A DNA stretch of 64,000 bases from Acidobacteriota bacterium (GCA_029263355.1 JAJCXQ010000420.1:1540-65539), one strand, 5' to 3'; shown: positions 15,520-59,586, counted from the first letter of the stretch. Notes: generated from the sequence alone by a model not told the origin. A program made the numbers and translations.

Positions 15520-15713
15520 CCTCGATTCTCCTTGGTACGGGTAGGTTTGGGAGCGTGACATTAGCACGCACTGGACGTCTATTCACCATTTCGAATCTGG
15601 CCTACAGCTCAGCATCGCTAGTAAGATTTCGCCTCCTGCACCCAAGTGCTCTCGCGCCCACAATACCGGTCCACATGCCGGTCCACAGCGCCGGCACCTT
15701 CTTGGAGATCAAA

Positions 15714-37489: not shown

Positions 37490-37650
37490 TCGAGAATCGA
37501 CAACTTCACCTACCACAGCGAGATCTCATCGCCGCCGGGTTGAAGTCACCGGCATTCCACGATCGCCTCGGCCCCGACCGGCCCCTCGATCCGGGCAAGA
37601 CAGCTGCGCCCCGAGAGTCCATCGGAAACCGAGGAGCCCGAAGCTCATGA
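37486..37650 (+). CDS. 54-codon ORF nested between NRPS genes 1 and 2 (hypothetical; possibly just a coupling spacer)
   Basis: MIENRQLHLPQRDLIAAGLKSPAFHDRLGPDRPLDPGKTAAPRESIGNRGARSS. Its ATG overlaps the NRPS1 stop (CAATGA, 37484-37489) and its TGA overlaps the NRPS2 ATG (TCATGA, 37645-37650). It is below the ORF-track size cut-off and has no recognisable domain. Confidence 0.35.
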   Translation: MIENRQLHLPQRDLIAAGLKSPAFHDRLGPDRPLDPGKTAAPRESIGNRGARSS

Positions 37651-43600: not shown

Positions 43601-46600
43601 CAGTCCGCTCTTCCAGGTACTCTTCACCCTGCAGGATGAACCGCTTCGAGAGCTCGAGGTCGGCAAGCTGAAGATCGCTCCCGCCGACTTCGGCGACGAC
43701 CAGGTTGCCAAGTTCGACCTCTCCATGGGGCTGATCGAGAACAAGCAGGGCCTTGTGGCGGCGATCGAGTACAACGTCGATCTTTTTGACCGGACCACAG
43801 TACTGAGGCTCCTGGAGCATCTCGGAACGCTTCTCGAGCAGGCGGTCGCCAGCCCTGACGAGTCAATCGAGCGCCTCGAGCTACTCACCGTCCGGCAGCG
43901 CTTCCAGTTGCTCGAGGAGTGGAACGCGACGCCGGTGATCGTCCCGCCGCTGGTGACGCTTGCCAGCCTCTTCGCAGCTCAAGCGAAGCGCGATCCGGAT
44001 CGCGTGGCGCTGATCGTCGGTGACGAGTCGCTCACTTTCGGCGAGCTCCGCAGCCGGGCTAAGCGCTGGGCGCGTCGGCTGGTGGACGACGGGATTGGAC
44101 CGGAGGTTGGCGTCGGGGTCTTCCTCGACCGCTCCTCCGATCTGGTGGTGGCGCTGCTGGCGGTGCTCGAGGCCGGCGGCTTCTACATTCCTCTCGATCC
44201 AAACTACCCGCCATCACGGGTGGAGCTACTGCTCCGAGACTCCGGTGCCAAAGTGGTGCTCACAAGCCTTGGTCTGTGCCACCAGCTGCCGCCGAACAGT
44301 GCTCGCCTGATCTGCGTCGACGCCGAGGCACCTGAACCGACATCGAACGCAGCAGGCGGCCGGCGTGCGGCCGAGAGCAACAACCTGGCTTACGTGATCT
44401 ACACCTCCGGCTCGACGGGTGTTCCCAAAGGGGTCGGTATCGAGCACCGCGCCACTGTCGCTCTGTTGAGCTGGGCTGCGCAGGTTTATGGCGAGGAGGA
44501 GCGGCGCGGCGTCCTGGCCTCGACATCGGTCTGCTTCGACCTCTCGATCTTCGAGCTCTTCCTGCCGCTGACCATGGGCGGCACCGTGGTGCTCGCCGAG
44601 AACCTCTTCGACCTCCCACGGCTGCCAGCGGCGGACCGGGTGAGTCTGGTGAACACGGTGCCCTCGGTTCTCGCTGAGCTCCTGCGATTCGGCGGCATGC
44701 CGCCGTCGGTCACAACCATCAACCTCGCTGGCGAGGCCCTGCAGAGCGACCTCGTCGACCGCCTCGGCGAGGCGGCCCGCGCCCCAGCAATCTACAACCT
44801 CTACGGGCCGTCCGAGTGCACCACCTACTCAACGACAGCGACGATCTCACCCGGGGTGGCCGACCCGGTGCCGATCGGTCAGCCGATCTCCAACACTCGG
44901 GCGTACATCCTCGACCGCCATCTCCAGCCGACAGCGCCCGGAGTCTTGGGAGAGCTGTTCCTGGCCGGTGCCGGCGTGGCGCGGGGTTATCTCGGGCGCC
45001 CCGTACAGACGGCCGAGAGCTTTCTGCCGAGCCCGTTCGGAGATGGCGATCGCCTGTACCGCACGGGGGACCTCGCACGGTTCGGTGGCGATGGCAGCCT
45101 GGAGTTCCATGGCCGTATCGACCGACAAGTCAAACTGCACGGCTTCCGGATCGAGCTAGAAGAGACCGAGGTTGTGCTGGCCCGACACCCTCAGGTCGGC
45201 GAAAGCGCTGTCGTCCTTCAGGATGACTCGGCTGGCCATCCACATCTCGCTGCTTACTTGGTGGCTTCCGACGGTCAAGCCCCCACCTCGGCCACGCTGG
45301 CGAGCTACCTCCGCGAGCACCTGCCGAACTATATGGTTCCCGGTACTTTCCGTCTCCTCGAGGAGCTGCCACGCACGCCCAACGGCAAGGTCGATCGTCG
45401 GGCACTGGCAACGATCCGCCTGGAGGCCGAGCTCGAGGGCCCGGAGCGTGGCGACTACGTCGCCCCGCGAAACGCTGTCGAAGAGCAGCTCACCGCCATC
45501 TGGAGCGAGGTTCTACAGAGAGAAACGGTGGGCGTCGATGACAACTTCTTCGAAATCGGCGGCGACTCGATCCTCAGCATCCAAGTCGCCTCCCGCGCCC
45601 AGCAAGCCGGCCTGCGCTTGACGACGAAGCAGCTATTCCAGGCGCAGACCATCGCCGAGCTGGCCAAGCTGGTCGGCACGGCGGCGACCGAGGCCGAACA
45701 GGGCATGGTGGTCGGCGAGGTACCGCTAACCCCCGCCCAGCGTTGGTTCTTCGCCCAGCGACCCGCCCACCCGCATCACTTCAACCAGGCCATTGTCCTC
45801 ACGCCGCGAGAGCAGCTGACCATGACGGCCCTGGACCGGGCACTATCGAGCCTGGTCGGCCACCACGACGCCCTGCGTCTGCGCTTCCGGCGACAAGGGG
45901 AGCACTGGGAAGCTTTCCAGTGTGACGACCTCGCGAGCTCGTTCCGCCTGCGCCGTGTGGATCTCTCCCGCCTCAGCGACGCCGACCGTCGCACCGCGCT
46001 CGAACGGTCTTTCGCGGTCGCCCACGCCAGCCTCCGGCTTGAGCAGGGGCCGCTCTTCGAGGCCACACTCCTCGACCTGGAACCAGAGACGCCGGGCCGC
46101 CTGCACCTGGTGGTCCATCACCTGGCGATGGACTGGGTGTCCTGGGGCATCCTGCTCACCGACCTGACACGAGCCTACGAGTCGGCAACGCGCGATGAGA
46201 AGATCGACCTCGGGCTGAAGACCACTTCCTTCCGCCAATGGGCGAGCTCCCTGGTCGAGGATGGAGTCCCCAGCATTGCCGAAGAGCGCGAGCACTGGCA
46301 CAGCACCGTCTTGCCATCGGTGCCTTCGCTGCCACGGGACTTTCCGGCCGGCGACAATTCCAGCGCTACCACAGAGCTGGCCAGCTCTGTGCTGAGCCGG
46401 GGAGAGACAGCCTCCCTGCTTCAAGCCGCTGGGGTCGCCTACCGAGTCCAGCCCCGGGATCTCGTGGTCGCGGCGCTCGCCGCGGGTATCGCCTCGGCGA
46501 CCGGTCAACGCCGCCTTCGCCTCGTCCTCGAGGGCCACGGCCGCGAGGAGCTACGCGACAGCCATGATCTCTCGCGAACCGTCGGCTGGTTTACGAGTAT

Positions 46601-47165: not shown

Positions 47166-50100
47166 GAGATCACATCGCCGACTTCTACCCGCTCTCCCCG
47201 ATGCAGCAGGGGATGCTCTTCCATGCCCTGGAGAGCCCTGAGTCTACCGTCCACCACGAGTTCCTTCGCTGCGAGCTCGAGGGTAAACTCGCTGAAGACA
47301 CCCTCGAGTATGCCTTACAAGCGGTCGTGGACCGCCACGCTGTCTTGCGGAGCGCCTTTCTCTGGGAGGGACTGCGCGAGCCGGTGCAGGTCGTCCATCG
47401 TGATGTTCCGCTGCCTTTGCAGCGCCTCGATTTGAGCGGGATCACGGCAAGCGAACAGGAGCGACGTCTCACGGTCTTGGCGCAGGAGGAGCGCGAGAGC
47501 CACTTCGAGCTCTCCCAACCGCCGCTGCTGCGAATGACCCTGGTCAAGCTCGGTCTCCACCGCAGTCTCCTGCTGTGGAGCTTTCACCACATGCTGCTCG
47601 ATGGCTGGAGCACGGCCCAGGTGTTGCAGGAGTTCTTCGAGCTGTACGAGATAGGTTGCCGCAACACGGAGCCACAACTGCCCCCGGCGGTGCCCTACCG
47701 CAACTACATCGCCTGGCTCAAGCGGCAATCCATGACCCGCGCTGAGGCTTTCTGGCGGCAACGCCTCGCCGGGTTCTCCCGGCCGACCCCGCTCCCTTTG
47801 GCACTGCCACGGGCGCGGCGAGCCGAAGGGGTGGAAGAGTGCCGGCTGTCGATCGATTCCGCCACCAGTGACCAGCTCAAATCGTTAGCAAGTCGCCTGA
47901 AGCTGACACCCAACACCGTCGTCCAGGCGGCCTGGGCCCGGCTGCTGGCCCTCTACAGCGGCGAGCTCGATATTCTCTTCGGTGCCGTAGTTTCCGGCCG
48001 GCCGCCGGAGCTTTCCGGAATCGAATCGCTCGTCGGCCTGATGATCAACACCCTGCCGGTACGGATCGCGGTGCCGAAGCAGACGGCCATCGAGACCTGG
48101 ATGCGAGAGTTACAGACACTGCGGGCCGAGGAGAGCGAATTCGAGTTCACACCCCTCTATAGGATCCAGGAGTGGGCAGGCGTCGCCGGCTCACCACTGT
48201 TCGAGACCCTGCTCGGCTACCAGAATTATCCTTTTGACTCCGTTGCCGCTCAACCTAGCAGCGGCCTACGACTGGTCGCGGTGGACGCGATCGAGCAGAC
48301 CAACGTCCCCTTGACCCTGACCATCGGGCTCGGCCAAGAAATGGGCCTGCGCGCTCTACTCGACCCGCGTCGTTTCGACCTGCACGCCGTCGACCGGGTG
48401 TTGCGTTCGCTCGCGACCCTTTTGCGGAACATCGTCGCCAACCCCGACGCACCGGTCCAGAGCCTCGGTTTTTTGAGCGCTGAGGAGCGGCAGCAAGTGT
48501 TGACGGGGTGCAACCTCACCCCACAACCCTACCCGCGCCAAGCCGGCTTGGCGGAGCTGTTCGCCGATCAGGTAGCCCGGCATCCCGAGGCGGTGGCCTT
48601 GGAGTTCGGCGACGGCCTGCTGAGCTACGCCGAGCTCGACCGGCAAGCCCGGTGCCTGGCCACCAACCTTGGCGCCAGCGGCGTCAGCCACGGATCCCTC
48701 GTCGGCCTCTGTCTCGAGCGCTCCACCGCGCTAGCGGTCGGCATCCTCGGCATTCTCCAGGCTGGCGGCGCCTACGTCCCCCTCGACCCCGACCACCCTT
48801 CCGAGCGCCTCGACTTCATGGCCGAGGATGCCGGCTTGGCGGCGGTCGTCACCGAAGAGGCGCACGCCGCTGCCCTGCCACACTGGGGGCTCCCAACGCT
48901 AGTGCTCACCACTGGGACGAACGCAAATCTCGCCAAAGAGATCACCGCTACCCCAAATGTTGTCGTTAGCGGCGAGAGCCTGGCCTACGTCATCTATACC
49001 TCCGGCTCCACCGGCCGACCCAAGGGCGTGGCCGTTCCGCAGCGAGCCGTTGCCCGCCTCGCACTCGGCACCGACTACGTCGATCTCCGCCCCGGCAACC
49101 GCATGGCCCAGGCCTCTACCGCCTCGTTCGACGCCGCCACCTTCGAGATCTGGGGCGCCCTGCTCACCGGTGGCCGCCTCGTTGGTCTCGAGCGCGAGCT
49201 GACTTTGGCGCCAGCCGAGCTCGCTGCCGCCCTCGATCGCCACCGGATTGACACCCTGTTCCTCACTACTGCTCTGTTCAACCAGGTCGTTCGGCTCGAG
49301 CCGGCGGCCTTCGCACGGCTCCGCGAGCTACTGTTCGGAGGCGAGGCGGTCGATCCTGACATCGTTCGCCGCGTCCTGGCCGAGGGCTCGCCGCGTCGTC
49401 TGTTACATGTCTACGGACCCACCGAGTCAACCACCTTCGCGACCTGGCACGAGGTCGACTGCGGCGCCGACACGGACGCCACTATCCCCATTGGCCGGCC
49501 CTTGGCCAACACCACCGCCTATGTGCTCGACAGCAACAGCGAACCGGTTCCTGTCAATGTGCCGGGCGAGCTCTACCTGGGCGCCGACGGCCTGGCGCGA
49601 GGTTACCTCCACCGGCCCGCACTGACCGCGGAGTGCTTCGTCCCCCATCCCTTCGCCGATAGCGAGCGCCTCTACCGCACCGGTGACCGCGTGCACCGCG
49701 GTGCCGACGGCGCGATCGAGTTTCTGGGGCGCTTCGACCATCAGATCAAACTACGCGGCTTCCGTATCGAGCTCGGCGAGATCGAAGAGGCCCTGCGTGG
49801 GCACCCGGCTATCGGCGACGCCGTCGTTGTCCTCACTAACTCGTTACCGGTCGGCGAGCAGCTTGTGGCCTACGCCGTACCCACCTCACCGAATGCCCTG
49901 CCTATCGCCGAGTTGCGGAACTTTCTCGGCGAGCGCCTGCCGCACTACATGGTGCCCCAGCTTTTCGTAAGTCTTCCCGAGCTGCCTCTCAACGCCAACG
50001 GTAAACTCGATCGCGACGCCCTGCCGAAACCGATCCCCGCAGAAGTGTACGGATCGGTATCGACTTCCGAACTGCCCGCGACAGCGGTCGAAGCGACACT

Positions 50101-53100
50101 CGCCGAGATCTGGGCCGATGTGCTCGGCTGCTCACAAGTCGGTCGTAGCGAAGACTTTTTCGACCTTGGTGGGCACTCCCTGCTCGCCATCCAGCTCATT
50201 TCCCGCGCCCGGCGTGCCTTTGGCATCGATCTGCCCCTCTCAGCCTTGTTCGAAAACTCCACGGTCGAGCGATTGGCGACCGTCGTCCAGCGAGCGATCG
50301 CCACCGGCCCCGAGGCGCCGCCGATCGAACGGATCACCCGGGATGCTCCCCTTCCATTGTCGTTCGGACAACAGCGGCTGTGGTTTCTCCACCAGCTCTT
50401 GCCCATGACCGACCAGTACAACGTACCTGCGAACCTCCGCCTCACGGGTCGGCTGGTAGCTCCGGTTCTGTCCGCCTGCCTAGATGAAATCGTGCGTCGC
50501 CATGAGGTAATGCGCACTCGGTTTGTCGAAGCGGACGGTGTGCCGGTGCAGATCATCGACGAGCCGCGAGGTCTGCCGCTCCCGACCATCGACCTATCCG
50601 GCTTGCCGGAGGCGGAGCGCAGCTCGACCCTCGCACGGTTGCAGCGCAACGAATCGCTGCAAGCCTTCGACCTCGTGGCCGGGCCGGTAGTCCGCGCCCT
50701 ACTCGTTCGTTTGCAGAAGAAAGACCACGCGCTGCTGCTCAGCATGCACCACGCGGTCGCGGACCTGTGGTCGATGGCAGTGCTGATGGGAGAGCTGGCC
50801 AAACTATACACAGCTTTCGTCGCAGGACTCCCCTCACCCCTCGAGGAACTGCCGGTTCAATACGCCGACTACGCGGTTTGGCAGCGACGCCAGATGGAAG
50901 GGGAAGCCTGGCAAGAGCAGATCCGCTACTGGCGCAAGCGCCTAGAGAGAACACCGCCGGCACTGGAGCTGCCGGCCGACCGGCCGCGGCCCGCGGTACA
51001 GAGCTTCCGGGGAGCACTCGAGTCGATCCGCTGGCCTGGTGACCGGCGTGACGCCGCCCGCCGCCTGAGCCGCTCGCAGGACGCGACCCTCTACATGACC
51101 CTGCTGGCCTGTTTCCAGATCCTACTTGCACGTTACAGCGGAACGCGGGACGTCTGTGTCGGTTCGCCGATTCTCAATCGCACTCGACCTGAAATCGAGC
51201 CGCTGATCGGTTTCTTTGTCAACACCGTGGTGCTGCGTACCGACCTTTCCAACGCACCGCGGTTCCGGGAGGTGTTAGCGCAGGTCCGCCGTCTGGCGCT
51301 CGAAGCCTACGCCAACCCGGACGTCCCGTTCGAGCAGATCGTCGAGGAAATTCAGCCGGAGCGGACACTGACTTTTACGCCGCTCTTTCAGGTGATGTTC
51401 GTGCTCCACAACGCCGGTGCTGGGCGGATCACTCTGCCTGGGCTCGAAGCCACTCCTCTCCCCAACGCAACGGAAACCGCGAAGTTCGATCTGACGTTGA
51501 TCGTGCAAGAAGAGACGGAGGCCGGCTTTGTCGCAACCGTCGAGTACAACACGGATCTGTTCGACCGGACCACGATAGTGCGTATGTTGGGCCATCTGGA
51601 GAGGTTGCTGATGAGTGCAGCCGCCGAACCCAACAGGCGAGTGAGTGCCCTCCCTGCCCTAGCTCTGAGCGAGTGCCATCAACTCTTGACCGAATGGTCC
51701 GGGCCCGCCGCCGATGGGCTGTCGGCCGATCTCCACGCGGACGAGGTCGGCATAGACCGGCTCTTCGCTCACCAGGCGACAGTCAGCCCGGACCGCATCG
51801 CACTGGTGTCGGCCGGCGACGCCTGGACCTACGGCGATCTCGCCGCGCGTTCGCACGGCCTGGCTCAGCTCCTAGAGGAGCTGGCACGATCCACATCCAC
51901 CAACTCTCGTGAAGTGCTCGTCGGCATGATCGCCGAGCAGGGGCCCGACATCGTCGTCGGGATCCTCGGTATCCTTCGCTCGCCCTGCGCACTGGTGCCG
52001 GTCTCCCCCGCCTACCCCGAGGAGAGGATCCGGTTTATTGTCGACGAGTGCGGTATCGAAGTCCTCGTCACTCAGAGCCACCATCTCGAGAAGCTGCTCA
52101 ACCTGGCCAGCTCCACCCCGACGCTACGCCACGTGGTCTGCCTCGACGCCGAACCGGAGGCTTCGTTGGCGGCGGCGTCCCTCGCTGTCTACGGACCCGC
52201 TGCCTGGCGGTATCGTGACAGTGAGGGTGGTGCAGCTGGCGCGACGGCTAAGCGGCTGGCCTACGTGATCTACACCTCGGGCTCCCCCGGCCGCCCCAAG
52301 GGGGTACCCATCTCCCACGCCAACTTAATCCCGTTGCTGCTCTGGGGCCGCGACTGCTTCGGGATCGACGAGCACACCCGTGTGGCATCGAGCCTTTCCT
52401 GCTGGTTCGACTTCGGCCTCTTCGAAATCTTGAGCACCTTGCTCTTCGGCGGCCAGCTCCACCTGCTGCGATCGCAGGAATCCGGTGATCCCGCCCTCTA
52501 TGCTCCTTGGATCGCCGAGCGACGGCTGAATACGCTGCACGGCACACCATCGTTCGTGCGCGAGATCACTGCCGCGGCATCGCAGCCGCTGGCCGAGCTA
52601 GAGATCCTGCACATGGGCGGCGAGGCGCTGGCCCGCGCAGATGTCGACCGGTTATTCGAGGCGGTGGGAGAACGGTGCCTGCTCTACAACGGCTACGGGC
52701 CCACCGAGGCCAGCGTCAACAGCGCGATTTTCAACATCGGCAGCCTCGCCGAACGCCACGACAGCGCCGATGCCAACACGCCGATCGGCGGCGCCTCGAC
52801 CGGCAAACGCCTCTACGTTCTGGACCGATGGCAGAGCCCGACACCGGTCGGGGTGGCCGGCGAACTTCACATCGGTGGTGGCGGGCTGTCACGGGGGTAC
52901 TGGCGGCGACCAAGCCTGACCGCCGAACGATTCTGGCCCGATCCCAACGGTTCCGCCCCAGGCGCCCGCCTCTATCGCACTGGTGACCGGGTGCGCTGGC
53001 GTGCCAGCAGCAACATCGAGTTTCTGGGGCGCTTCGACCACCAGATCAAGCTGCGCGGGTTCCGCATCGAGCTGGGAGAGATTGAGGCAGCGCTGATCGA

Positions 53101-55084
53101 ACACCCCGAGATCAACGCGAGCACGGCCCTTCTGCGCGAGGACCGTCCAGGCGAGCGACGGCTCGTTGCCTATATCGTGGCGCAATTCGAGCCACCGCCA
53201 AGCACCGAAGAACTGCGCAGTTTTCTCGCCGAGATCCTGCCATGGTACATGGTGCCTTCAGTGTTCATGAACCTGGCGACGCTGCCGCTGACGCCCACTG
53301 GCAAAGTCGACCGCCGGGCTCTGCCGCCACCGGCGCAGGGGGAAGAAGAGAGCAAATCGTACGAGCCGCCGTCCACACCGACGGAAGAGACCGTGGCTGG
53401 CATCTGGTCGGAGGTTCTAGGCCGGGAGCAGGTCGGAAGGCAGGCGAATTTCTTCGATCTCGGCGGCCATTCTCTGCTGGCGACGCAGGTCATCTCGCGG
53501 GTGCGCCAAGCGTTCGACGTCAACTTACAACTGCGAGCCCTCTTCGAGGCCGTCGACCTCGCCCGCTTTGCTGAACGGATCGACCTGGCCCGCCTGGAGG
53601 AGGTACCGGAGGGTGGCGACGCCATGGTGTCTCCAGCGAGGTTCCAAGCCGAGGTCGAATCGGCCCAACGGCGGCTCGACAGTGATCCGAATATCGAGGA
53701 GATTCTTCCCCTCGCCCCCGGCCCGCGCGCGCTGGTCGCTCAAACCCTGGCCTCGGACCGGCCGAGCACTTGGATGATGCAGCTCACCTATGGATTGGCC
53801 GCTCCGCTGGAGGAACGACTTCTCGGAGCTGCCTGGGGAGCAATTCTCCAACGTTATGCCCTGCTCCGCTCAGTCGTCGCTTGGCGCGGGCTGGAGCAGC
53901 CCGTGCAGGTGATTCGCCGCGATCTCGAGATGCCGGTCCGCTGGCTCGACTGGACAGCTCTGAACGAAGCCGAGCAAAACGACGAGCTGCAACGACTTCT
54001 CCACCGCGATCGCGAAGCTGGCCTCGACTTTAGTGCCGGCCCTTTGCTGCGCCTGGTCGCGATTCGCCGGCGGCGAGATGCCCACGATCTGGTTTTGAGC
54101 TTTCACCACCTGCTCCTCGACGGCTGGAGCAACACGATGTTACTGCACGACCTGCTCGCCACCTATGAAGCGCTGCGCACCGGTCGTGGGCCGGCGACCC
54201 TACCGGCGATCGTGCCCTACCAGACCTACCTCGATTGGCTCGAGCGCAAAAACCTCGCTCCTGCGGAGGCCTACTGGCGGCAGACCCTTGGCGGCTTCAC
54301 CGCGCCGCCCCCACTGCCCATCGATCCGATGGTGACGCCGGGCGTTGAGGGCCAGGAAGAGATCCAGGTGTTCCTCGACAAGGCTCTGAGCCGCCGGCTG
54401 GAGATATTCGCACAGCGCCACCGCTTGACGATCAATACCCTCGCCCAGGGAGTCTGGAGCCTGGTCCTCTCTTCGCTGGCAGACTGCGAGGAGTTGGTCC
54501 TCGGGGTCGTGACGTGGGGACGCCCGCCAGATCTCGAACGTGCAGAGTCGATCTTCGGTTGTCTCATGACCACGCTTCCTTTCCGCACTCGATTCATACT
54601 CGACCAACAGATCGTTCCATGGCTCCAAGAGCTGCAGATCGATCTTGCGGCGCTGCGCGAGTACGAGCATTGCAGCGCCGAGCAAATCAAGCAATGGGCG
54701 GGGTGGCCAACAGATGCACCGCTCTACGATTTTCAGTTCGTTTGCAACAATTTTCCACCCCCGGAGGCGGATCCGACAAACCTCGGCTTCGAGATTACGT
54801 CGTCCGAGGTCTTCGAAGAGAATCGTTACCTGCTTGATCTCGAGGTCATCCCGGCAACGCGCTGGCGGCTGGCACTGCTGTTTCAGCGCAGTCACTTCAA
54901 CCGCCGCGCGGCCCGCAGCCTGCTCGGTCGTTACGAGGCCGTGCTCGAACAGCTGGTTGCCGACCCCGAGCTGCTCCTCGCGAGCCTCCGGTCCCCGATC
55001 CCGTCCCTCGACCAACCCGAGAAGATCGCGGCTACAACCGAGATGACCCGTTCCGGCACACCAGCCGTGGAGCTCGAGCGGTGA
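47162..55084 (+). CDS. non-ribosomal peptide synthetase 3: C(DCL)-A-T-C-A-T-C(terminal)
   Basis: The GTG start overlaps the NRPS2 stop (GTGA). DCL C domain (YPLSPMQQGMLFH, HHMLLDGWS ~47590). A3 cores near 49000 and 52275 (the latter reads YTSGSPGRPKG). Carrier serines near 50175 and 53470. LCL C domain with HHAVADLWS (~50750). Terminal C-like domain with HHLLLDGWS (~54105). No GxSxG thioesterase or reductase domain. Confidence 0.95.
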   Translation: MRDHIADFYPLSPMQQGMLFHALESPESTVHHEFLRCELEGKLAEDTLEYALQAVVDRHAVLRSAFLWEGLREPVQVVHRDVPLPLQRLDLSGITASEQERRLTVLAQEERESHFELSQPPLLRMTLVKLGLHRSLLLWSFHHMLLDGWSTAQVLQEFFELYEIGCRNTEPQLPPAVPYRNYIAWLKRQSMTRAEAFWRQRLAGFSRPTPLPLALPRARRAEGVEECRLSIDSATSDQLKSLASRLKLTPNTVVQAAWARLLALYSGELDILFGAVVSGRPPELSGIESLVGLMINTLPVRIAVPKQTAIETWMRELQTLRAEESEFEFTPLYRIQEWAGVAGSPLFETLLGYQNYPFDSVAAQPSSGLRLVAVDAIEQTNVPLTLTIGLGQEMGLRALLDPRRFDLHAVDRVLRSLATLLRNIVANPDAPVQSLGFLSAEERQQVLTGCNLTPQPYPRQAGLAELFADQVARHPEAVALEFGDGLLSYAELDRQARCLATNLGASGVSHGSLVGLCLERSTALAVGILGILQAGGAYVPLDPDHPSERLDFMAEDAGLAAVVTEEAHAAALPHWGLPTLVLTTGTNANLAKEITATPNVVVSGESLAYVIYTSGSTGRPKGVAVPQRAVARLALGTDYVDLRPGNRMAQASTASFDAATFEIWGALLTGGRLVGLERELTLAPAELAAALDRHRIDTLFLTTALFNQVVRLEPAAFARLRELLFGGEAVDPDIVRRVLAEGSPRRLLHVYGPTESTTFATWHEVDCGADTDATIPIGRPLANTTAYVLDSNSEPVPVNVPGELYLGADGLARGYLHRPALTAECFVPHPFADSERLYRTGDRVHRGADGAIEFLGRFDHQIKLRGFRIELGEIEEALRGHPAIGDAVVVLTNSLPVGEQLVAYAVPTSPNALPIAELRNFLGERLPHYMVPQLFVSLPELPLNANGKLDRDALPKPIPAEVYGSVSTSELPATAVEATLAEIWADVLGCSQVGRSEDFFDLGGHSLLAIQLISRARRAFGIDLPLSALFENSTVERLATVVQRAIATGPEAPPIERITRDAPLPLSFGQQRLWFLHQLLPMTDQYNVPANLRLTGRLVAPVLSACLDEIVRRHEVMRTRFVEADGVPVQIIDEPRGLPLPTIDLSGLPEAERSSTLARLQRNESLQAFDLVAGPVVRALLVRLQKKDHALLLSMHHAVADLWSMAVLMGELAKLYTAFVAGLPSPLEELPVQYADYAVWQRRQMEGEAWQEQIRYWRKRLERTPPALELPADRPRPAVQSFRGALESIRWPGDRRDAARRLSRSQDATLYMTLLACFQILLARYSGTRDVCVGSPILNRTRPEIEPLIGFFVNTVVLRTDLSNAPRFREVLAQVRRLALEAYANPDVPFEQIVEEIQPERTLTFTPLFQVMFVLHNAGAGRITLPGLEATPLPNATETAKFDLTLIVQEETEAGFVATVEYNTDLFDRTTIVRMLGHLERLLMSAAAEPNRRVSALPALALSECHQLLTEWSGPAADGLSADLHADEVGIDRLFAHQATVSPDRIALVSAGDAWTYGDLAARSHGLAQLLEELARSTSTNSREVLVGMIAEQGPDIVVGILGILRSPCALVPVSPAYPEERIRFIVDECGIEVLVTQSHHLEKLLNLASSTPTLRHVVCLDAEPEASLAAASLAVYGPAAWRYRDSEGGAAGATAKRLAYVIYTSGSPGRPKGVPISHANLIPLLLWGRDCFGIDEHTRVASSLSCWFDFGLFEILSTLLFGGQLHLLRSQESGDPALYAPWIAERRLNTLHGTPSFVREITAAASQPLAELEILHMGGEALARADVDRLFEAVGERCLLYNGYGPTEASVNSAIFNIGSLAERHDSADANTPIGGASTGKRLYVLDRWQSPTPVGVAGELHIGGGGLSRGYWRRPSLTAERFWPDPNGSAPGARLYRTGDRVRWRASSNIEFLGRFDHQIKLRGFRIELGEIEAALIEHPEINASTALLREDRPGERRLVAYIVAQFEPPPSTEELRSFLAEILPWYMVPSVFMNLATLPLTPTGKVDRRALPPPAQGEEESKSYEPPSTPTEETVAGIWSEVLGREQVGRQANFFDLGGHSLLATQVISRVRQAFDVNLQLRALFEAVDLARFAERIDLARLEEVPEGGDAMVSPARFQAEVESAQRRLDSDPNIEEILPLAPGPRALVAQTLASDRPSTWMMQLTYGLAAPLEERLLGAAWGAILQRYALLRSVVAWRGLEQPVQVIRRDLEMPVRWLDWTALNEAEQNDELQRLLHRDREAGLDFSAGPLLRLVAIRRRRDAHDLVLSFHHLLLDGWSNTMLLHDLLATYEALRTGRGPATLPAIVPYQTYLDWLERKNLAPAEAYWRQTLGGFTAPPPLPIDPMVTPGVEGQEEIQVFLDKALSRRLEIFAQRHRLTINTLAQGVWSLVLSSLADCEELVLGVVTWGRPPDLERAESIFGCLMTTLPFRTRFILDQQIVPWLQELQIDLAALREYEHCSAEQIKQWAGWPTDAPLYDFQFVCNNFPPPEADPTNLGFEITSSEVFEENRYLLDLEVIPATRWRLALLFQRSHFNRRAARSLLGRYEAVLEQLVADPELLLASLRSPIPSLDQPEKIAATTEMTRSGTPAVELER
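53698..55081 (+). other. terminal condensation-like domain (putative release/cyclisation or amine-capping catalyst)
   Basis: About 460 aa after the last carrier domain with an intact HHLLLDGWS. It is colinear with the DCL C domain at the start of the same protein (..VAWRGLEQPVQVIRRDLEMP.. versus ..FLWEGLREPVQVVHRDVPLP..), but the donor-side LSPMQ motif is degenerate (LAPGPRA). Confidence 0.75.
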
Positions 55085-55620
55085 GCGAACTCACCACAGC
55101 AGGGAGCTTCGAAGTCGACAGAGGCGACCTAGGGTGGGGCATTTTCGCCCGCCGGGAGTTCCACAGGGGCGATTACATCTTCACCTTCACCGGCCCCCTG
55201 ATCGACTTCGACGGCACCGTGGCCAAGGGCGAGCGCGAGAGCGACCCTCTGCAGATCGGCGAAAACCTCTACATCGACCTCGAGGAACCGGGCAGGTCCA
55301 TCAACCACTCCTGCGCCCCCAACAGCGGCGTCATCGAGAATCGAATTCTGATCGCGATCCGGAGTATTCAGCCGGGCGAGGAAATCAGCCTAGACTACTC
55401 CACGACCATGGGGGACGGTCACTGGACGATGATCTGTGCCTGCGGCAATGCTTCGTGCCGCGGAGTGATCCGCGACTTCGAGTATCTCGACCAAGAGTTG
55501 CGTCAGAGCTATCTCGAGCTGAACGTTGTACAGGGGTACTTGCGCCACCGCCTCGGCGAGCAGCTGCAGGCGGACCGTCACGGCAGAGGCGAGATGGCCT
55601 CGAAGGATTTTCGACGATGA
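55081..55620 (+). CDS. SET-domain (lysine) N-methyltransferase with post-SET Cys cluster
   Basis: The GTG start overlaps the NRPS3 stop (GTGA), with GGAG 10 nt upstream. SET motifs GWGIFARREF, SINHSCAPN, EEISLDY; post-SET CACGNASCRG. Confidence 0.85.
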   Translation: MSELTTAGSFEVDRGDLGWGIFARREFHRGDYIFTFTGPLIDFDGTVAKGERESDPLQIGENLYIDLEEPGRSINHSCAPNSGVIENRILIAIRSIQPGEEISLDYSTTMGDGHWTMICACGNASCRGVIRDFEYLDQELRQSYLELNVVQGYLRHRLGEQLQADRHGRGEMASKDFRR

Positions 55621-56429
55621 GCTGGCGCGAGATCGAACGGGTGGAGCTGCCATCGCCGCGCGAGTTTCAGCGGAAGTACCTTGCCGGGTCGCGACCGGCC
55701 GTGTTCACCAATGCCATGGACCATTGGCCGGCCCGAGAGATGTGGACTCCTGAGTACTTCAAGTCGAGGTACGGGGACATCAAACTTCTGGTTCAGAATC
55801 ACGAAGCGCTGACCGGAGAGGCGAGTGGACCGATCGAGGAGCAGTACGCGGAACAGCGCTTGGGTGACTACATCGACGACCTGCTGACGCCGGAGCAGAA
55901 GACAGGCTACATCGTGCAGTGCCCGCTGCTCGACGCGGTGCCCGAGCTTCGCCATGATGTCGACTTTCCGCCCTTCTTTTCGCCGCTCTCCCGACCGAAG
56001 CTGCAACTGTGGATCGGCCCGGCAAACACCAACTCCAAGCTCCACTACGACCAGGACGAGAATCTCTTCGCTCAGATCTATGGCAGGAAGCGGATTATCC
56101 TAGCGCCGCCGGAAGCGACGAAGTACTGCTACCCGACCAACGTCACCTGGGGGGAAGGCTACAGCCCGATCCACCCTCACGACCCTGATCTGACTCACTA
56201 CCCGCTGTTCGCGAAGGTTCGACGTTACCAGACCGTTCTCGGACCGGGCGAGATCCTCTACATCCCTCTCCGCTGGTGGCACGATGTCACTGCGCTCGAA
56301 CCCGCTATCTCGGTCAACTTATGGTGGTGGCCGCCGAAACTGATGATCCGCAACGTCGCCTACCGGGAATGGGACCGCCTCAGCAAGCGCTTGACAGGCA
56401 AGCTAGGTGTCTCCTACGGCCCCCGCTAA
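55617..56429 (+). CDS. JmjC/cupin-8 Fe(II)/2-oxoglutarate oxygenase, FIH-like (JmjC-only hydroxylase type)
   Basis: ATGA overlap with the SET gene. LHYDQDENLFAQIYGRKRIILAPP (HxD facial triad, compare FIH [24 protein letters not shown]), ...GPGEILYIPLRWWHDV...SVNLWW (distal His). The ORF-track extension to 55134 was rejected. Confidence 0.85.
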   Translation: MSWREIERVELPSPREFQRKYLAGSRPAVFTNAMDHWPAREMWTPEYFKSRYGDIKLLVQNHEALTGEASGPIEEQYAEQRLGDYIDDLLTPEQKTGYIVQCPLLDAVPELRHDVDFPPFFSPLSRPKLQLWIGPANTNSKLHYDQDENLFAQIYGRKRIILAPPEATKYCYPTNVTWGEGYSPIHPHDPDLTHYPLFAKVRRYQTVLGPGEILYIPLRWWHDVTALEPAISVNLWWWPPKLMIRNVAYREWDRLSKRLTGKLGVSYGPR

Positions 56430-56462: not shown

Positions 56463-57422
56463 ATGAGCGACACCATCCTTCACGTCGAGACCATCGGCAA
56501 GAGCTTCGAAACCGTCCGCGCTCTTGACGACCTCAGCTTCCAGATCGAAGCCGGCGAGATCTTTGCCCTCCTCGGGCCAAACGGTGCCGGCAAGTCGACA
56601 ACCGTACGCATCCTGATGGGGATACTACGGCCAGACTCCGGCCAGATTCGATATCAGATCGGTTCCTACCTCGGACCGGAACCGCCGTCTAGGACTCTCG
56701 GCTATCTGCCGGAGGATCGTGGCCTCTACCCGGACGTACCGATCCTCAAGACCCTTGTCTACATGGGGATCCTACGCGGGATGCCACGCGCTGAGGCTAC
56801 TGAGGCTACCCGCCACTGGCTGGGGCGCCTAGGCCTCCTCGAGCGCGAAGGGGAAAAGCTGGACGCCCTATCGAAAGGTAACCAGCAGAGAGTGCAGTTC
56901 ATCGGCTCGATCCTCCACAGTCCTAGCTTCGCGGTCCTCGACGAACCGTTCTCCGGCCTCGATCCGATCAACCAGGAACAGATCCTCGACATCTTGCGCG
57001 ATCTCCGCAAGGCGGGTACGACGATCTTACTCAGCGCTCACCACCTCGATCTCGTCGAGCGCATCGCCGACCGGGTTCTGCTGCTCGACCAGGGACGAGA
57101 AGTGCTCGCGGGCACCATCGACGAGGTCAAGAAAGTAACCGCGGCGCGGCGGCTTGTTTTCGAGATCGCAGGTACCCCCGACACAGAAATCATCGAGTCC
57201 TTACCAGGCGTCGAGGCGGTCGAGATTCGCGATTCGGGCGAGATAGCTACTACGCTTGGAAGGACTGTCGAGCTGAATGCGTTCTTGAATGCGTTGACCT
57301 CACGCTTCGAGGTCACTTCGATCCGATCGACGGAGATGGACTTGCACGACATTTTTGTCGGCAAGATCTCGGAGCGGCGCGCGGCGGCCGAGAGCGCGCC
57401 AGGCGCTAAGGAGGCAATCTGA
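56463..57422 (+). CDS. ABC transporter ATP-binding protein (ABC-2/DrrA-like)
   Basis: Walker A GPNGAGKST, signature LSKGNQQRV, Walker B LDEPFSGLD. Confidence 0.9.
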   Translation: MSDTILHVETIGKSFETVRALDDLSFQIEAGEIFALLGPNGAGKSTTVRILMGILRPDSGQIRYQIGSYLGPEPPSRTLGYLPEDRGLYPDVPILKTLVYMGILRGMPRAEATEATRHWLGRLGLLEREGEKLDALSKGNQQRVQFIGSILHSPSFAVLDEPFSGLDPINQEQILDILRDLRKAGTTILLSAHHLDLVERIADRVLLLDQGREVLAGTIDEVKKVTAARRLVFEIAGTPDTEIIESLPGVEAVEIRDSGEIATTLGRTVELNAFLNALTSRFEVTSIRSTEMDLHDIFVGKISERRAAAESAPGAKEAI

Positions 57423-58612
57423 TGAGCTCGAGCAGACTTCTCTTTGAGATCGCCCGATGGGAGTTCGGTCGCTGGTTCAAATTCGGCGACCGGCTCCGCT
57501 CGCTGGTTTCCTCCGCCCTCATCGGCCTCGCGGTATGGGGTGGCCTCGCACTTGTCGAACGGTTTAGCCGAACCGAGGTGACGGTAGTCGTCTTCGGCAC
57601 GGAAACACTGCCTCTCGCCGCGCCTGAAGATGCGTTAATCCAACTCGAACCGGCAGCAGGCCGCAGCCTCGATGACTTGCGAAAGGAACTTGCCCAGCAG
57701 GAAATCGATGCTGTACTCAACCTTCAGACGGCCGACGCTGGCCAGCTTCTTGTCACGCGTGAGCCCGGTTACCTCACCGAACTGACAGAAATCCTGTCCC
57801 TGGCGCGACGGCAAGTGAGACTCGACGAGTTGGAGATCAACGAGGAACAATTAGCCACCCTCAACCGCCCCTACGAGCTGAGCGTCGAGTCGGTGGCAAA
57901 AGGCGGACGCAAGACGACGGCTGACAAGATCGCGGCGGGTGTGCTGATCGGCCTGATGACGCTCGGAGTCTTCATCGGTCTGAGCTACCAATTTGTCGTC
58001 ATCACCGGCGAGAAGCGCCTGCGTATTACCGAGCAGATCGTCTCGGCGGTGTCACCTCAGAGCTGGATTGATGGCAAGATCCTCGGGCTATCCGCTCTGT
58101 CGATGGTCAGCCTGTTGACTTATCTTGCCGGTACCTTGATTTTCCTGTTTGTGGCCACACTTTTCGGTAATCCCATCACGATACCTAGCAGCGCCGCCAA
58201 TCCCGGTTTGTGGCTGCTCTTGGGCCTGTTCTCTGCCGGAGGTTTCTTTCTCTGGAACACCCTTTTTGCGGCCTTCGCCGCCACCATTGACGACCCCAAC
58301 ACCTCGGCGCGAGGGTCGCTCATGATGCTGCCATTCTTCCCCCTGGCACTCGCCTTCTTCGTGCTCAAAAGTCCCGACGCGGAGATCATCCGCCTGCTCG
58401 GCCTCTTTCCCTTGACTTCGCCGACGGTGATGGCGGCACGTCTCGTCCTGACCCAGGTCACGTGGTGGGAGATCCTACTCAGCCTTGGTCTACTCGCGGC
58501 CACCATCTTAGTGTTGCGACGAGTCGCCGGTAAAATCTTTGCCCTCTCGATCCTCATGTATGGCAAGGAGCCCTCATGGTCCGAGATGGCCCGCTGCCTT
58601 CGTGAGGCTTGA
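57422..58612 (+). CDS. ABC-2 family transporter permease
   Basis: 1-nt overlap with the ATPase gene (TGATG). N-terminal TM helix, a large loop, then about 5 TM helices. Confidence 0.8.
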   Translation: MSSSRLLFEIARWEFGRWFKFGDRLRSLVSSALIGLAVWGGLALVERFSRTEVTVVVFGTETLPLAAPEDALIQLEPAAGRSLDDLRKELAQQEIDAVLNLQTADAGQLLVTREPGYLTELTEILSLARRQVRLDELEINEEQLATLNRPYELSVESVAKGGRKTTADKIAAGVLIGLMTLGVFIGLSYQFVVITGEKRLRITEQIVSAVSPQSWIDGKILGLSALSMVSLLTYLAGTLIFLFVATLFGNPITIPSSAANPGLWLLLGLFSAGGFFLWNTLFAAFAATIDDPNTSARGSLMMLPFFPLALAFFVLKSPDAEIIRLLGLFPLTSPTVMAARLVLTQVTWWEILLSLGLLAATILVLRRVAGKIFALSILMYGKEPSWSEMARCLREA

Positions 58613-58733: not shown

Positions 58734-59435
58734 ATGAAAAAAGATGTGTTCTTCCATTGGTCTCAGGCCCGTTTCCTCAAAGACACGTTGCGCAACAAAA
58801 ACATCGAGGTCGGCGACAACACGTACTACTCGGGTTTTTACCACGGCGAGCACTTCGATGAGTTGTGTGTGCGTTACTTGCTCGGTGACCCAGAGTCGCT
58901 GAAGATTCTGCGGGCTAACGACACTGAGATCGACCGGCTGATCATTGGAAAATTCTGCTGTTTCGCCAGCGGAGTGGTCATCGTCATGGGCGGCAACCAG
59001 GGCCACAACCCAGAGAACATCACCGTCTACCCTTTTCCAGACAAATTGGCTGAGCTCAAGAAGCTCAAGGGAGACACCGTGATCGGCAACGATGTCTGGC
59101 TGGGAACCGAGGCAATGATTCTGCCAGGGGTGAAGATTGGCGATGGCGCAATCATCGGCGCGCGGGCGCTGGTTTCGAAGGATGTCGAGCCCTATAACGT
59201 CGTCGTCGGCAATCCGGGGCGGGTCATCAAGCAACGATTCTCGGACGACGAAGTCGACAAGCTGCTCAAAATCCGCTGGTGGGACTGGCCCATGAAAGAA
59301 GTCTTCGCTCAGCAGGACATTCTGTGCAGTGGCAACATCGATCTCTTGTGGGAGATACATCTCCGGCGCCCAGCGGCGAAGATGCATCTCCGCCGCCCAG
59401 CGGCGGAGAAAAGACTCGGCTCCCCACCCGCCTGA
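58734..59435 (+). CDS. Vat-family (streptogramin A / xenobiotic) hexapeptide-repeat O-acetyltransferase
   Basis: By-eye alignment to Vat(D): ..IGKFCCFASGVVIVMGGNQGHN...YPFP...GDTVIGNDVWLGTEAMILPGVKIGDGAIIGARALVSKDVEPYNVVVGNPGRVIKQRFSDDEVDKLLKIRWWDWP. The extra C-terminal tail arises from a 27-bp tandem duplication. Confidence 0.85.
   Translation: MKKDVFFHWSQARFLKDTLRNKNIEVGDNTYYSGFYHGEHFDELCVRYLLGDPESLKILRANDTEIDRLIIGKFCCFASGVVIVMGGNQGHNPENITVYPFPDKLAELKKLKGDTVIGNDVWLGTEAMILPGVKIGDGAIIGARALVSKDVEPYNVVVGNPGRVIKQRFSDDEVDKLLKIRWWDWPMKEVFAQQDILCSGNIDLLWEIHLRRPAAKMHLRRPAAEKRLGSPPA
59358..59411 (+). repeat. 27-bp tandem duplication at the 3' end of the vat-like gene
   Basis: catctccggcgcccagcggcgaagatg / catctccgccgcccagcggcggagaaa, encoding HLRRPAAKM / HLRRPAAEK. 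Confidence 0.8.
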
Positions 59436-59586
59436 GACCTAGTGATCCACCTTTCTTCCAACGTCATGAAGAGTCAACATCTAATCAACCCTAACAACCG
59501 TGTCCAGGACACTCCGTCAAGCCTGACGCCACCGATTGTCGAAGCACCCCTTGCTAGCAAGATCGATCTGGAAGGAAGGAGAGCCA

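What the first reader, a model, noticed from the sequence alone, without database searches (positions are those of the whole stretch)
55081..56429. Chromatin-type SET methyltransferase and FIH-like JmjC oxygenase translationally fused into an NRPS operon
Seen: a 179-aa SET/post-SET protein starts with a GTGA overlap on the stop of the last NRPS gene. A 270-aa JmjC/cupin-8 protein follows with an ATGA overlap, and an ABC exporter sits 34 nt later. Both enzymes keep their catalytic signatures (NHSCAPN and EEISLDY; HYD...WWH). Established: SET domains are protein-lysine N-methyltransferases. JmjC-only enzymes of the FIH type hydroxylate, or demethylate, side chains of folded proteins. NRPS tailoring normally uses class-I methyltransferase domains and TauD/SyrP-type or P450 oxygenases, and I do not know of a characterised NRPS pathway using a SET enzyme. 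Inference: the pair modifies a residue of the peptide or of a carrier-bound intermediate, for example N-methylation and/or C-hydroxylation of the cationic residue predicted at position 3. Alternatively it forms a methyl writer/eraser pair acting on the product or on the synthetase itself. Either would be a new tailoring logic.
Basis: partly seen in the sequence, partly recalled or inferred. Interest (0 to 1): 0.85.

Follow-up and report, generated by a model that had tools for sequence, protein, structure and literature searches.

The report
SET methyltransferase and JmjC hydroxylase in NRPS operon
Two enzymes best known from chromatin biology, a SET methyltransferase and a JmjC oxygenase, sit as a conserved pair at the end of an 11-module peptide-synthetase operon and most likely decorate its peptide; each type has a precedent near such synthetases, so this is an unusual variant rather than a new principle.

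Summary
A 179-aa SET/post-SET gene (55081-55620) overlaps the stop of the last NRPS gene by GTGA. A 270-aa Cupin_8/JmjC gene (55617-56429) follows with an ATGA overlap, and an ABC exporter starts 33 nt later. All catalytic motifs are intact.

The same block recurs at 48-63% protein identity in an unrelated 70%-GC metagenome contig: terminal C domain, SET, JmjC, ABC ATPase, ABC-2 permease, radical-SAM methyltransferase. The pair therefore belongs to the cluster.

The "new tailoring logic" claim is overstated:
- The oxygenase is JMJD5-like, not FIH-like, and lacks JMJD5's arginine-binding dyad.
- Cupin_8 genes sit directly beside NRPS genes in Eleftheria, Mycetohabitans, Burkholderia and Nostoc, and were proposed as hydroxylases for laxaphycins.
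- A SET enzyme (BurB) is already characterised in an NRPS-PKS pathway.
- I found a Brevibacillus laterosporus NRPS ending in a fused T-C-SET, the same order as here.

Best reading: JmjC hydroxylates a side chain. SET methylates a nucleophile at or after C-domain-mediated release. Substrates are not determined. A writer/eraser pair is unlikely. Novelty: new variant of a known kind. Interest about 0.6.

The parts
18134..37489 (+). NRPS gene 1: modules 1-6, the C domain of module 7 and the first ~75 residues of the module-7 A domain
   Evidence: Core-motif scan. Specificity codes. The C-terminus aligns to the start of an A domain.
24520..26100 (+). A domain of module 3, the only cationic-type code in the assembly line (DVEDIGAITK; coordinates approximate)
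   Evidence: Code extracted against GrsA. It matches ApnA-A1 DVEDIGAIEK, which incorporates Arg only, in 9 of 10 positions (PMC5311044).
37486..37650 (+). 54-codon ORF that splits the module-7 A domain; ATGA overlaps at both ends
   Evidence: No Pfam match.
37647..47165 (+). NRPS gene 2 (true start ATG 37647): remainder of A7, modules 8 and 9, and an E domain
47162..55084 (+). NRPS gene 3: modules 10 and 11, ending in a terminal Condensation domain; no thioesterase
53690..54990 (+). Terminal Condensation domain with an intact HHLLLDG motif (coordinates approximate)
   Evidence: Pfam Condensation E 8e-28 on the last 294 aa. Motif at residue 2315. It is 47.6% identical to the terminal C domain of L001, against 29% or less for internal C domains.
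55081..55620 (+). SET/post-SET SAM-dependent methyltransferase, 179 aa, GTG start overlapping the NRPS stop
55617..56429 (+). JMJD5-fold Cupin_8/JmjC Fe(II)/2-oxoglutarate oxygenase, 270 aa
56463..57422 (+). DrrA-type ABC transporter ATPase
   Evidence: 56% identical to the counterpart in L001.
57422..58612 (+). ABC-2 type permease
   Evidence: 53% identical to the counterpart in L001.
58734..59435 (+). Hexapeptide-repeat (CatB/Vat-like) acetyltransferase; present in this window but absent from L001
59584..61515 (+). B12-type radical-SAM C-methyltransferase (TIGR03975); a conserved member of the block
   Evidence: NCBIfam 519 bits. 62.6% identical to the sixth gene of L001. A homologue lies between NRPS/PKS genes in L026.

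Best explanation
SET and JmjC are two dedicated, trans-acting tailoring enzymes of an 11-module NRPS pathway.

The synthetase has no thioesterase and ends in an active C domain. It builds a mostly hydrophobic undecapeptide with one cationic residue at position 3. Predicted order: X, Ile, Arg/Lys, aromatic, Val, Ile, X, Ile, D-Ala, Ile, X.

The JmjC protein is a JMJD5-fold Fe(II)/2-oxoglutarate oxygenase. I propose that it hydroxylates an unactivated side-chain carbon, probably C3, of a residue in the carrier-bound or released peptide (+16 Da).

The SET protein uses SAM to methylate a nucleophilic heteroatom one to three times (+14/28/42 Da). The target is most likely an amine of the peptide, or of the amine that the terminal C domain captures. 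It acts at or just after the release step. The product is then exported by the adjacent DrrAB-type pump.

The two enzymes need not act on the same residue.

Shown: the domain identities, the intact catalytic residues, co-inheritance of the block, and independent recurrence of each enzyme type at NRPS termini. Inferred: the substrates, the regiochemistry, the order of action, and peptide versus precursor as the substrate.
For: 1. Catalytic competence.
- SET keeps NHSCxPN, the catalytic Tyr106 and the four-Cys post-SET site.
- JmjC keeps the equivalents of H321, D323, H400, K336, Y272, N327, S318 and W310.
- Both models are confident and hit MLL1/ASH1L/NSD and JMJD5 respectively.

2. Co-inheritance.
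- L001 is a 70%-GC metagenome contig; the window is 62% GC.
- L001 carries terminal C (47.6%), SET (57.5%), JmjC (56.5%), ABC (55.8%), ABC-2 (53.0%) and radical SAM (62.6%) in the same order.

3. Pair specificity. Across all fetched loci, SET and JmjC occur together only at these NRPS ends.

4. Fusion evidence for SET.
- A Brevibacillus laterosporus B9 NRPS ORF ends ...A(Thr code)-T-C-SET.
- Its SET keeps LHSCDPN, the DY tyrosine and CxCx4C.
- This is the same C-then-SET order as in the window.

5. Recurrence for JmjC.
- Cupin_8 genes lie directly after or between NRPS genes in Eleftheria terrae (4-nt overlap), Mycetohabitans endofungorum, Burkholderia arboris and Nostoc UHCC 0926.
- Cupin-8 proteins LxaF and LxaG were proposed as Leu/Asn hydroxylases of laxaphycins (PMC7524897).
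- The JmjC enzyme BipG hydroxylates ornithine in a peptide (PMC12707348).

6. Operon coupling. Overlaps of 4, 4 and 1 nt link NRPS, SET, JmjC and the exporter genes. No promoter-like sites were found inside the block.
Against: - The nearest SET homologues outside the two NRPS loci (50-57% identity) are solitary genes in unrelated contexts. They share every conserved position, so there is no NRPS-specific signature.
- The same holds for JmjC homologues at 41-47% identity.
- JMJD5's arginine-binding dyad is not conserved, so the hydroxylation target cannot be read from homology.
- The only characterised SET enzyme in an assembly-line pathway, BurB, methylates a free amino acid on sulfur, not a peptide amine (PMC12542666).
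- Only two independent lineages carry the pair.
- No product is known.
- The A7 domain is interrupted, so the pathway could be impaired in this genome.
Confidence: 0.6

Rival explanations
1. Precursor supply. One or both enzymes modify a free amino acid or amine before an A domain loads it or the terminal C domain captures it, as BurB does with methionine. The product would be selected by one of the three A domains with unassignable codes (DFFHHGGVNK in modules 7 and 11, DAFLMGLTLK in module 1), or used as the release nucleophile.
For: - BurB is a 172-aa SET protein that acts on free Met for an NRPS-PKS line (PMC7496086, PMC12542666). It appears among the structural matches (rank 15) and matches the family profile at E 2.5e-18.
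- The NRPS-linked SETs look like ordinary members of a widespread family, which suits a common small-molecule substrate.
- One family member is fused to an AdoMet decarboxylase domain and is translationally coupled to a deoxyhypusine-synthase-like gene.
- Three A domains have codes with no match in my literature search.
Against: - The family scores higher against MLL1 (3e-24) than against BurB.
- Partners like BurI, BurD and BurE are absent from the window.
- Solved and characterised relatives of the JmjC clade all act on peptides, proteins or tRNA (PMC12707348).
- The T-C-SET fusion places SET at the release end rather than with a loading module.
Confidence: 0.2
2. Self-protection or regulation. 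The pair modifies a cellular protein, for example the peptide's target, alongside the exporter and the acetyltransferase, and does not touch the peptide.
For: - SET and JmjC enzymes canonically act on folded proteins; JMJD5 and YcfD hydroxylate ribosomal proteins (PMC5862942).
- The pair lies next to a DrrAB-type exporter and a CatB/Vat-like acetyltransferase.
- The closest homologues are solitary genes.
Against: - The fused T-C-SET NRPS in Brevibacillus makes a protein-target role for this SET family unlikely.
- Cupin_8 genes sit at NRPS ends that have no exporter next to them.
- The acetyltransferase is not conserved in L001.
Confidence: 0.07
3. Methyl writer/eraser pair. JmjC removes, by N-methyl hydroxylation, the methyl groups that SET installs on the peptide or on the synthetase.
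For: In eukaryotes SET and JmjC families are opposing activities. JMJD5 was once annotated as KDM8 (names).
Against: - JMJD5 was shown to be an arginyl C3 hydroxylase (title and abstract of PMC5862942).
- The next solved relatives are also hydroxylases: JMJD7, TYW5 and FIH.
- Translationally coupled opposing enzymes would form a futile cycle.
- Cupin_8 genes occur at NRPS ends without any SET.
Confidence: 0.03
4. Passenger genes with no role in the pathway.
For: Each family is mostly found outside biosynthetic clusters.
Against: - The six-gene order is conserved across lineages with 48-63% protein identity and different GC content.
- The genes are translationally coupled.
- The GC content of the pair (61%) matches its neighbours.
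Confidence: 0.05

Closest known systems
BurB, the SET-domain methionine S-methyltransferase of the Burkholderia malleicyprol (bur) NRPS-PKS pathway
   Same: A small (172 aa) stand-alone bacterial SET protein encoded in a thiotemplate cluster. It is a structural match and matches the family profile at E 2.5e-18.
   Different: - BurB methylates sulfur of free Met to start DMSP synthesis and works with BurI, BurD and BurE, none of which is present here.
- The window's family scores higher against MLL-type lysine methyltransferases.
- The window's SET carries a CxCx4C post-SET site, and the gene sits at the release end of the NRPS.
Cupin-8 proteins LxaF/LxaG of the laxaphycin/scytocyclamide NRPS cluster, and the NRPS-adjacent cupin_8 genes of Eleftheria, Mycetohabitans, Burkholderia and Nostoc
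   Same: Pfam Cupin_8/JmjC proteins of about 240-285 aa encoded directly beside NRPS genes. In Eleftheria the gene has the same 4-nt overlap with the NRPS stop.
   Different: - Only 30-35% identical to the window's protein.
- Their function is proposed, not demonstrated.
- None is paired with a SET gene.
Human JMJD5 (arginyl C3 hydroxylase)
   Same: Best sequence match (E 2e-37) and best structural match (target-normalised TM-score 0.86-0.90). The metal and 2-oxoglutarate ligands are identical.
   Different: The substrate-binding residues E238 and Y243 are Q and L here. The clade also has an inserted loop, VQxxExLT-G...., so substrate specificity is not transferable.
BipG, the JmjC ornithine hydroxylase of biphenomycin (a ribosomal peptide)
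   Same: A bacterial JmjC oxygenase that hydroxylates a basic residue of a peptide natural product (PMC12707348).
   Different: It acts on a ribosomal precursor peptide. Its sequence relationship to the window's protein was not tested.
MLL/SET1, NSD and ASH1L histone lysine methyltransferase SET domains
   Same: Best sequence, profile and fold matches. They share the SAM-binding motif, the catalytic Tyr and the post-SET zinc site.
   Different: - The window's protein has no flanking AWS/SET-N or reader domains.
- It has a family-specific invariant Gln58 (PLQIG) and a conserved C-terminal helix.
- It is bacterial and NRPS-linked.

Membership tests
SET-domain (class V) methyltransferases | SET fold / Pfam PF00856 match above the curated threshold | tested here: met
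   48.2 bits against a cut-off of 22.4. The model (pLDDT 94) matches MLL1/ASH1L/NSD SET domains with probability 1.00.
SET-domain (class V) methyltransferases | SAM-binding NHxCxPN motif and the catalytic Tyr of ELxxDY | tested here: met
   N75-H-S-C-A-P-N81 and E100-E-I-S-L-D-Y106. H76, S77, C78, P80 and Y106 are invariant in 96 family members.
SET-domain (class V) methyltransferases | Post-SET zinc site: three Cys plus the Cys of NHSC | tested here: met
   C78, C119, C121 and C126 are present and conserved in the family.
SET-domain (class V) methyltransferases | Protein-lysine N-methylation activity | not testable with these tools
   Substrate unknown. BurB shows that small bacterial SET proteins can use non-lysine, non-protein substrates (PMC12542666).
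BurB-type SET methionine S-methyltransferase | Closest sequence relationship to BurB | tested here: not met
   The family profile scores MLL1 at 3e-24 and BurB at 2.5e-18. BurB was not among the 60 best single-sequence hits.
BurB-type SET methionine S-methyltransferase | Accompanying DMSP genes (decarboxylase, transaminase and dehydrogenase of the BurI/D/E type) in the cluster | tested here: not met
   The Pfam scan of all flanking genes finds none. The only decarboxylase is a bona fide SpeA (852 bits to the NCBIfam biosynthetic arginine decarboxylase model NF003763).
JmjC-only 2-oxoglutarate hydroxylases (JMJD5/JMJD7/FIH/TYW5 group) | Cupin_8/JmjC double-stranded beta-helix fold | tested here: met
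   Cupin_8 at 2.5e-50. Foldseek gives JMJD5 at E 3e-25, with TM-scores of 0.77 (query-normalised) and 0.88 (target-normalised).
JmjC-only 2-oxoglutarate hydroxylases (JMJD5/JMJD7/FIH/TYW5 group) | HxD...H iron triad and the 2-oxoglutarate ligands (Lys, Tyr, Asn, Ser) | tested here: met
   H143, D145, H222, K158, Y98, N149 and S140 align with JMJD5 H321, D323, H400, K336, Y272, N327 and S318.
JMJD5-type arginyl C3 hydroxylase | Guanidino-binding Glu238 and Tyr243, both essential in JMJD5 | tested here: not met
   They align with Q60 and L65 in the window, in L001 and in the wider clade. The role of E238 and Y243 is from PMC5862942. A nearby conserved E63 could substitute, but I could not check this without model coordinates.
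NRPS-associated cupin-8 hydroxylases (LxaF/G-like) | Cupin_8 gene encoded directly beside NRPS genes | tested here: met
   True for the window and L001 and for four cultured-strain loci.
NRPS-associated cupin-8 hydroxylases (LxaF/G-like) | Hydroxylated residue in the product | not testable with these tools
   The product is unknown.
Methyl writer/eraser (SET plus JmjC demethylase) pair | JmjC member belongs to a demethylase clade | tested here: not met
   The best-matching solved structures are all hydroxylases (JMJD5, JMJD7, TYW5, FIH).

The most novel reading that the evidence does not exclude
SET domains are a previously unrecognised class of NRPS release-step methyltransferases. They occur fused as T-C-SET in Brevibacillus laterosporus and as a translationally coupled gene here. 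They would N-methylate, possibly to a quaternary ammonium, a lysine-like amine of the peptide or of a (poly)amine captured by the terminal C domain. In this cluster the JmjC partner would hydroxylate the same cationic moiety, giving a hydroxy-(tri)methyl-lysine-like or carnitine-like unit. That would be the first N-methylating SET in secondary metabolism and the first cooperative bacterial SET-JmjC pair.
Probability: 0.22. Interest if true: 0.8.

Novelty: new variant of a known kind. Interest (0 to 1): 0.62.

Why it matters
Natural-product methylation is attributed almost entirely to class I (Rossmann-fold) and class III (tetrapyrrole-methylase) methyltransferases (PMC7496086) and, as I recall, radical-SAM enzymes. 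BurB is the only SET example, and it acts on a free amino acid.

This finding adds a SET enzyme physically tied to an NRPS terminal C domain, coupled here and fused in a cultured Brevibacillus. That points to a second, different use of the SET fold in assembly-line chemistry and gives an experimentally tractable entry point.

The work also shows that JMJD5-like cupin-8 oxygenases are a recurrent, essentially uncharacterised class of NRPS accessory enzymes across at least four phyla.

Small bacterial SET and JMJD5-like proteins are widespread and of unknown function. Defining a substrate here could help explain what these "chromatin-type" enzymes do in bacteria.

Tried and rejected
Searches that added nothing:
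- The species-representative genome scan with the JmjC alignment found only three distant, non-NRPS loci.
- The metagenome scan with clade-specific patterns found nothing closer than 34% identity. No third lineage with the pair was found.
- An exact look-up of the SET protein failed.
- Cluster-member names gave no taxonomy.

RiPP reading of the downstream block (SET, JmjC and the TIGR03975 radical-SAM enzyme acting on a ribosomal precursor):
- No plausible precursor ORF was seen in the downstream intergenic gap next to the radical-SAM gene or in the two upstream intergenic regions examined.
- A close radical-SAM homologue is embedded between NRPS/PKS genes.
- I rejected this reading.

Other checks:
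- The promoter/terminator scan was uninformative: 0 promoter-like sites, and terminator-like hits not clearly above the shuffle expectation (10 vs 6.1 ± 2.2).
- Rfam found nothing.
- I tried to obtain a BurB orthologue from a Burkholderia savannae plasmid SET hit. It is not in a bur-like context.
- A literature search for the unassigned specificity codes found nothing.
- The Indioceanicola SET hit has no NRPS neighbours.
- A polyamine link was considered and kept only as a lead. The speA and deoxyhypusine-synthase-like genes 1.4 kb upstream look like a housekeeping homospermidine pathway.

Full report
**Observation**

- NRPS gene 3 (47162-55084) ends ...CGG TGA. A GTG at 55081 opens a 179-codon ORF, and an ATG at 55617 overlaps its stop and opens a 270-codon ORF ending at 56429.
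- An ABC ATPase gene starts 33 nt later. Both starts have Shine-Dalgarno-like purine runs.
- For the SET ORF, the GTG is the only possible start upstream of the domain.
- Pfam confirms SET (48 bits, cut-off 22.4) and Cupin_8 (E 2.5e-50) plus JmjC_2.
In the family alignments, H76, S77, C78, P80 and Y106 of the SET and H143, D145 and H222 of the JmjC are invariant; the rest of the quoted motifs are nearly so or vary.
- AlphaFold models are confident: pLDDT 94 for SET and 89 for JmjC.

**The surrounding cluster**

Motif mapping shows 11 modules and no thioesterase. The last domain is a Condensation domain with an intact HHLLLDG.

Specificity codes read against GrsA suggest X, Ile, cationic, aromatic, Val, Ile, X, Ile, D-Ala, Ile, X.
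- The Ile, Val, Ala and aromatic assignments rest on codes recalled from memory. They are leads, not tests.
- The module-3 code DVEDIGAITK matches DVEDIGAIEK in 9 of 10 positions. That code incorporates only Arg in anabaenopeptin synthetase (PMC5311044).
- DFFHHGGVNK (modules 7 and 11) and DAFLMGLTLK (module 1) could not be assigned.

Downstream of the pair lie:
- a DrrA-like ABC ATPase and an ABC-2 permease;
- a CatB/Vat-like hexapeptide acetyltransferase;
- a TIGR03975 radical-SAM methyltransferase.

**Do the two genes belong to the cluster?**

Yes, on three lines of evidence.

1. Conserved block. A 5.4-kb contig from an unrelated organism (L001, 70% GC against 62% here) carries the same order:

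| Gene | Identity to the window |
|---|---|
| NRPS terminal C domain | 47.6% |
| SET | 57.5% |
| JmjC | 56.5% |
| ABC ATPase | 55.8% |
| ABC-2 permease | 53.0% |
| Radical-SAM methyltransferase | 62.6% |

- The acetyltransferase is missing from L001.
- The terminal C domain is orthologous: it is 47.6% identical to the window's terminal C, against 29% or less for the internal C domains.

2. Pair specificity.
- In every other locus retrieved through a SET homologue (50-57% identity), SET stands alone with no NRPS or cupin nearby.
- The same is true for loci retrieved through JmjC homologues (41-47% identity).
- So the pair is specific to the NRPS context.

3. Independent NRPS association of each enzyme type, in cultured bacteria.
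- Searching the plasmid collection with the JmjC protein, four of the six best hits lie directly beside NRPS genes. They are Eleftheria terrae (the gene overlaps the stop of an NRPS ending in T-R by 4 nt), Mycetohabitans endofungorum (after a T-TE end), Burkholderia arboris, and Nostoc UHCC 0926 (between NRPS ORFs).
- Searching with SET found a Brevibacillus laterosporus B9 NRPS ORF of 4769 aa. Its C-terminus reads A (classical Thr code DFWNIGMVHK), T, C, SET in one reading frame.
- Pfam gives Condensation at 4.5e-103 and SET at 26.3 bits, above threshold. LHSCDPN, the DY tyrosine, the family's invariant Gln and a CxCx4C post-SET motif are retained.
- This fusion has the same order as in the window (terminal C, then SET). 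It is the strongest argument that this SET family can work on an NRPS product or on the release step.

**What the enzymes are**

The oxygenase is JMJD5-like, not FIH-like.
- JMJD5 scores E 2e-37 against about 1e-20 for FIH, and the target-normalised TM-score against JMJD5 structures is 0.86-0.90.
- All metal and 2-oxoglutarate ligands are conserved.
- The two residues that hold the arginine guanidino group in JMJD5, E238 and Y243, are both essential (PMC5862942). They align with Q60 and L65 in the window, in L001 and in the whole bacterial clade, which also has an inserted loop there.
- Membership in the JmjC-only hydroxylase group is therefore met. Membership in "arginyl C3 hydroxylase" is not.

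The SET protein belongs to a widespread family of 150-200-aa bacterial and archaeal proteins (105 clusters found).
- Family hallmarks are PLQIG, NHSCxPN, DYSTTM, CxCx4CR and a conserved C-terminal helix.
- Its best solved relatives are MLL1, ASH1L and NSD.
- The position that tunes methylation multiplicity in histone enzymes (the residue two before the catalytic Tyr; from memory) is Leu here. That would be compatible with multiple methyl transfers. This is inference only.

**Precedents that lower the novelty**

- BurB of Burkholderia thailandensis is a 172-aa SET protein in the malleicyprol NRPS-PKS cluster. It S-methylates free methionine, and its structure is solved (PMC7496086, PMC12542666). 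It appears among the fold matches.
- The window's family is not a BurB orthologue. The profile E-value is 2.5e-18 against 3e-24 for MLL1, and the partner genes are absent.
- Cupin-8 proteins were proposed as Leu/Asn hydroxylases in the laxaphycin NRPS cluster (PMC7524897).
- The JmjC enzyme BipG hydroxylates ornithine in the biphenomycin ribosomal peptide (PMC12707348).
- I found no paper describing a SET-JmjC pair or a SET fusion in a bacterial NRPS.

**Mechanism**

Most likely (0.6): both are dedicated tailoring enzymes.
- JmjC installs a hydroxyl on a side-chain carbon of the peptide.
- SET methylates a nucleophile, probably an amine, at or just after C-domain-mediated release. The product is then exported.
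- The single cationic residue (module 3) is the most economical shared target, but nothing demonstrates this.

Rival 1 (0.2): precursor supply on a free amino acid or amine, as with BurB.
- It is favoured by the fact that the NRPS-linked enzymes carry no signature separating them from their solitary relatives.
- It is also favoured by an AdoMet-decarboxylase-SET fusion coupled to a deoxyhypusine-synthase-like gene in another organism. That gene is 48% identical to the one 1.4 kb upstream of this NRPS.

Rival 2 (0.07): self-protection by modifying a cellular protein. The fusion evidence argues against it.

Rival 3 (0.03): a writer/eraser cycle. The hydroxylase affinities, the prospect of a futile cycle and SET-less cupin/NRPS loci argue against it.

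Rival 4 (0.05): passenger genes. Conserved synteny and translational coupling argue against it.

**Verdict**

The pair belongs to the cluster and is probably tailoring, but "new tailoring logic" is too strong and the proposed target is unsupported.
- The real advance would be a SET enzyme linked to NRPS chain release. This is testable in a cultured Brevibacillus.
- Novelty: new variant of a known kind. Interest: about 0.6.

Noticed in passing
window 37486-37650 (and the ends of the NRPS genes at 37489 and 37647): The module-7 adenylation domain is split about 75 residues from its start. NRPS gene 1 stops, a 54-codon ORF with no family match follows with ATGA overlaps at both ends, and NRPS gene 2 restarts at ATG 37647. 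The two halves align without a gap to the intact A11 domain, so about 160 nt are inserted inside the domain's coding sequence.
   Followed up: partly
window 59584-61515; L001 4577-5410; L026 10001-11920: A radical-SAM enzyme annotated as a 'RiPP maturation C-methyltransferase' (TIGR03975, 519 bits) is a conserved member of this NRPS block. In an Acidobacteriota MAG a homologue lies between PKS/NRPS genes. No precursor peptide ORF was seen, so this clade may methylate non-ribosomal peptides.
   Followed up: partly
L035 (Brevibacillus laterosporus B9, NZ_CP011076), reverse strand 26805-41111: An NRPS ORF ends in a fused T-C-SET tridomain after a Thr-specific module. The cluster has at least ten modules (codes for Pro, Leu, Pro, Leu, Ile/Val, ...). 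No publication on it was found.
   Followed up: partly
L027 1861-3773: A member of the same SET family (48% identical) is fused to an AdoMet decarboxylase domain. It overlaps by 4 nt a deoxyhypusine-synthase-like gene that is 48% identical to window 15555-16694. This hints that the family may be linked to polyamine chemistry.
   Followed up: partly
window 13591-16694: A biosynthetic arginine decarboxylase (speA, minus strand) and a divergent deoxyhypusine/homospermidine-synthase-like gene (plus strand, below all NCBIfam equivalog cut-offs) lie 1.4 kb upstream of an NRPS that ends in a C domain and could release onto an amine.
   Followed up: partly
L008/L009/L010 (Kofleriaceae MAG), around 4994-11892: A JmjC homologue (46% identical) lies beside a lysine/ornithine N-monooxygenase, a cupin_2/Met-tRNA-synthetase-like fusion (a gene pair I recall from hydrazine-forming pathways), an MFS transporter and an EamA transporter.
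   Followed up: no
window 58734-59435: A CatB/Vat-like hexapeptide acetyltransferase is inserted between the exporter and the radical-SAM gene here but is absent from L001. It could be a self-resistance or tailoring acetyltransferase.
   Followed up: no
window 10433-13555: Three consecutive stand-alone response-regulator receiver ORFs (136, 188 and 195 aa) are followed by a hybrid receiver-PAS histidine kinase.
   Followed up: no
window 351-10057, minus strand: A run of multihaem cytochrome c, Fe-S (1136 aa) and membrane subunit genes that resembles an alternative-complex-III-type respiratory module.
   Followed up: no
L034 (Nostoc sp. UHCC 0926 plasmid pn1) 5396-8796: An ORF combining a Condensation domain with a C-terminal TauD-type dioxygenase domain is followed directly by a Cupin_8/JmjC gene, all inside an NRPS cluster.
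   Followed up: no
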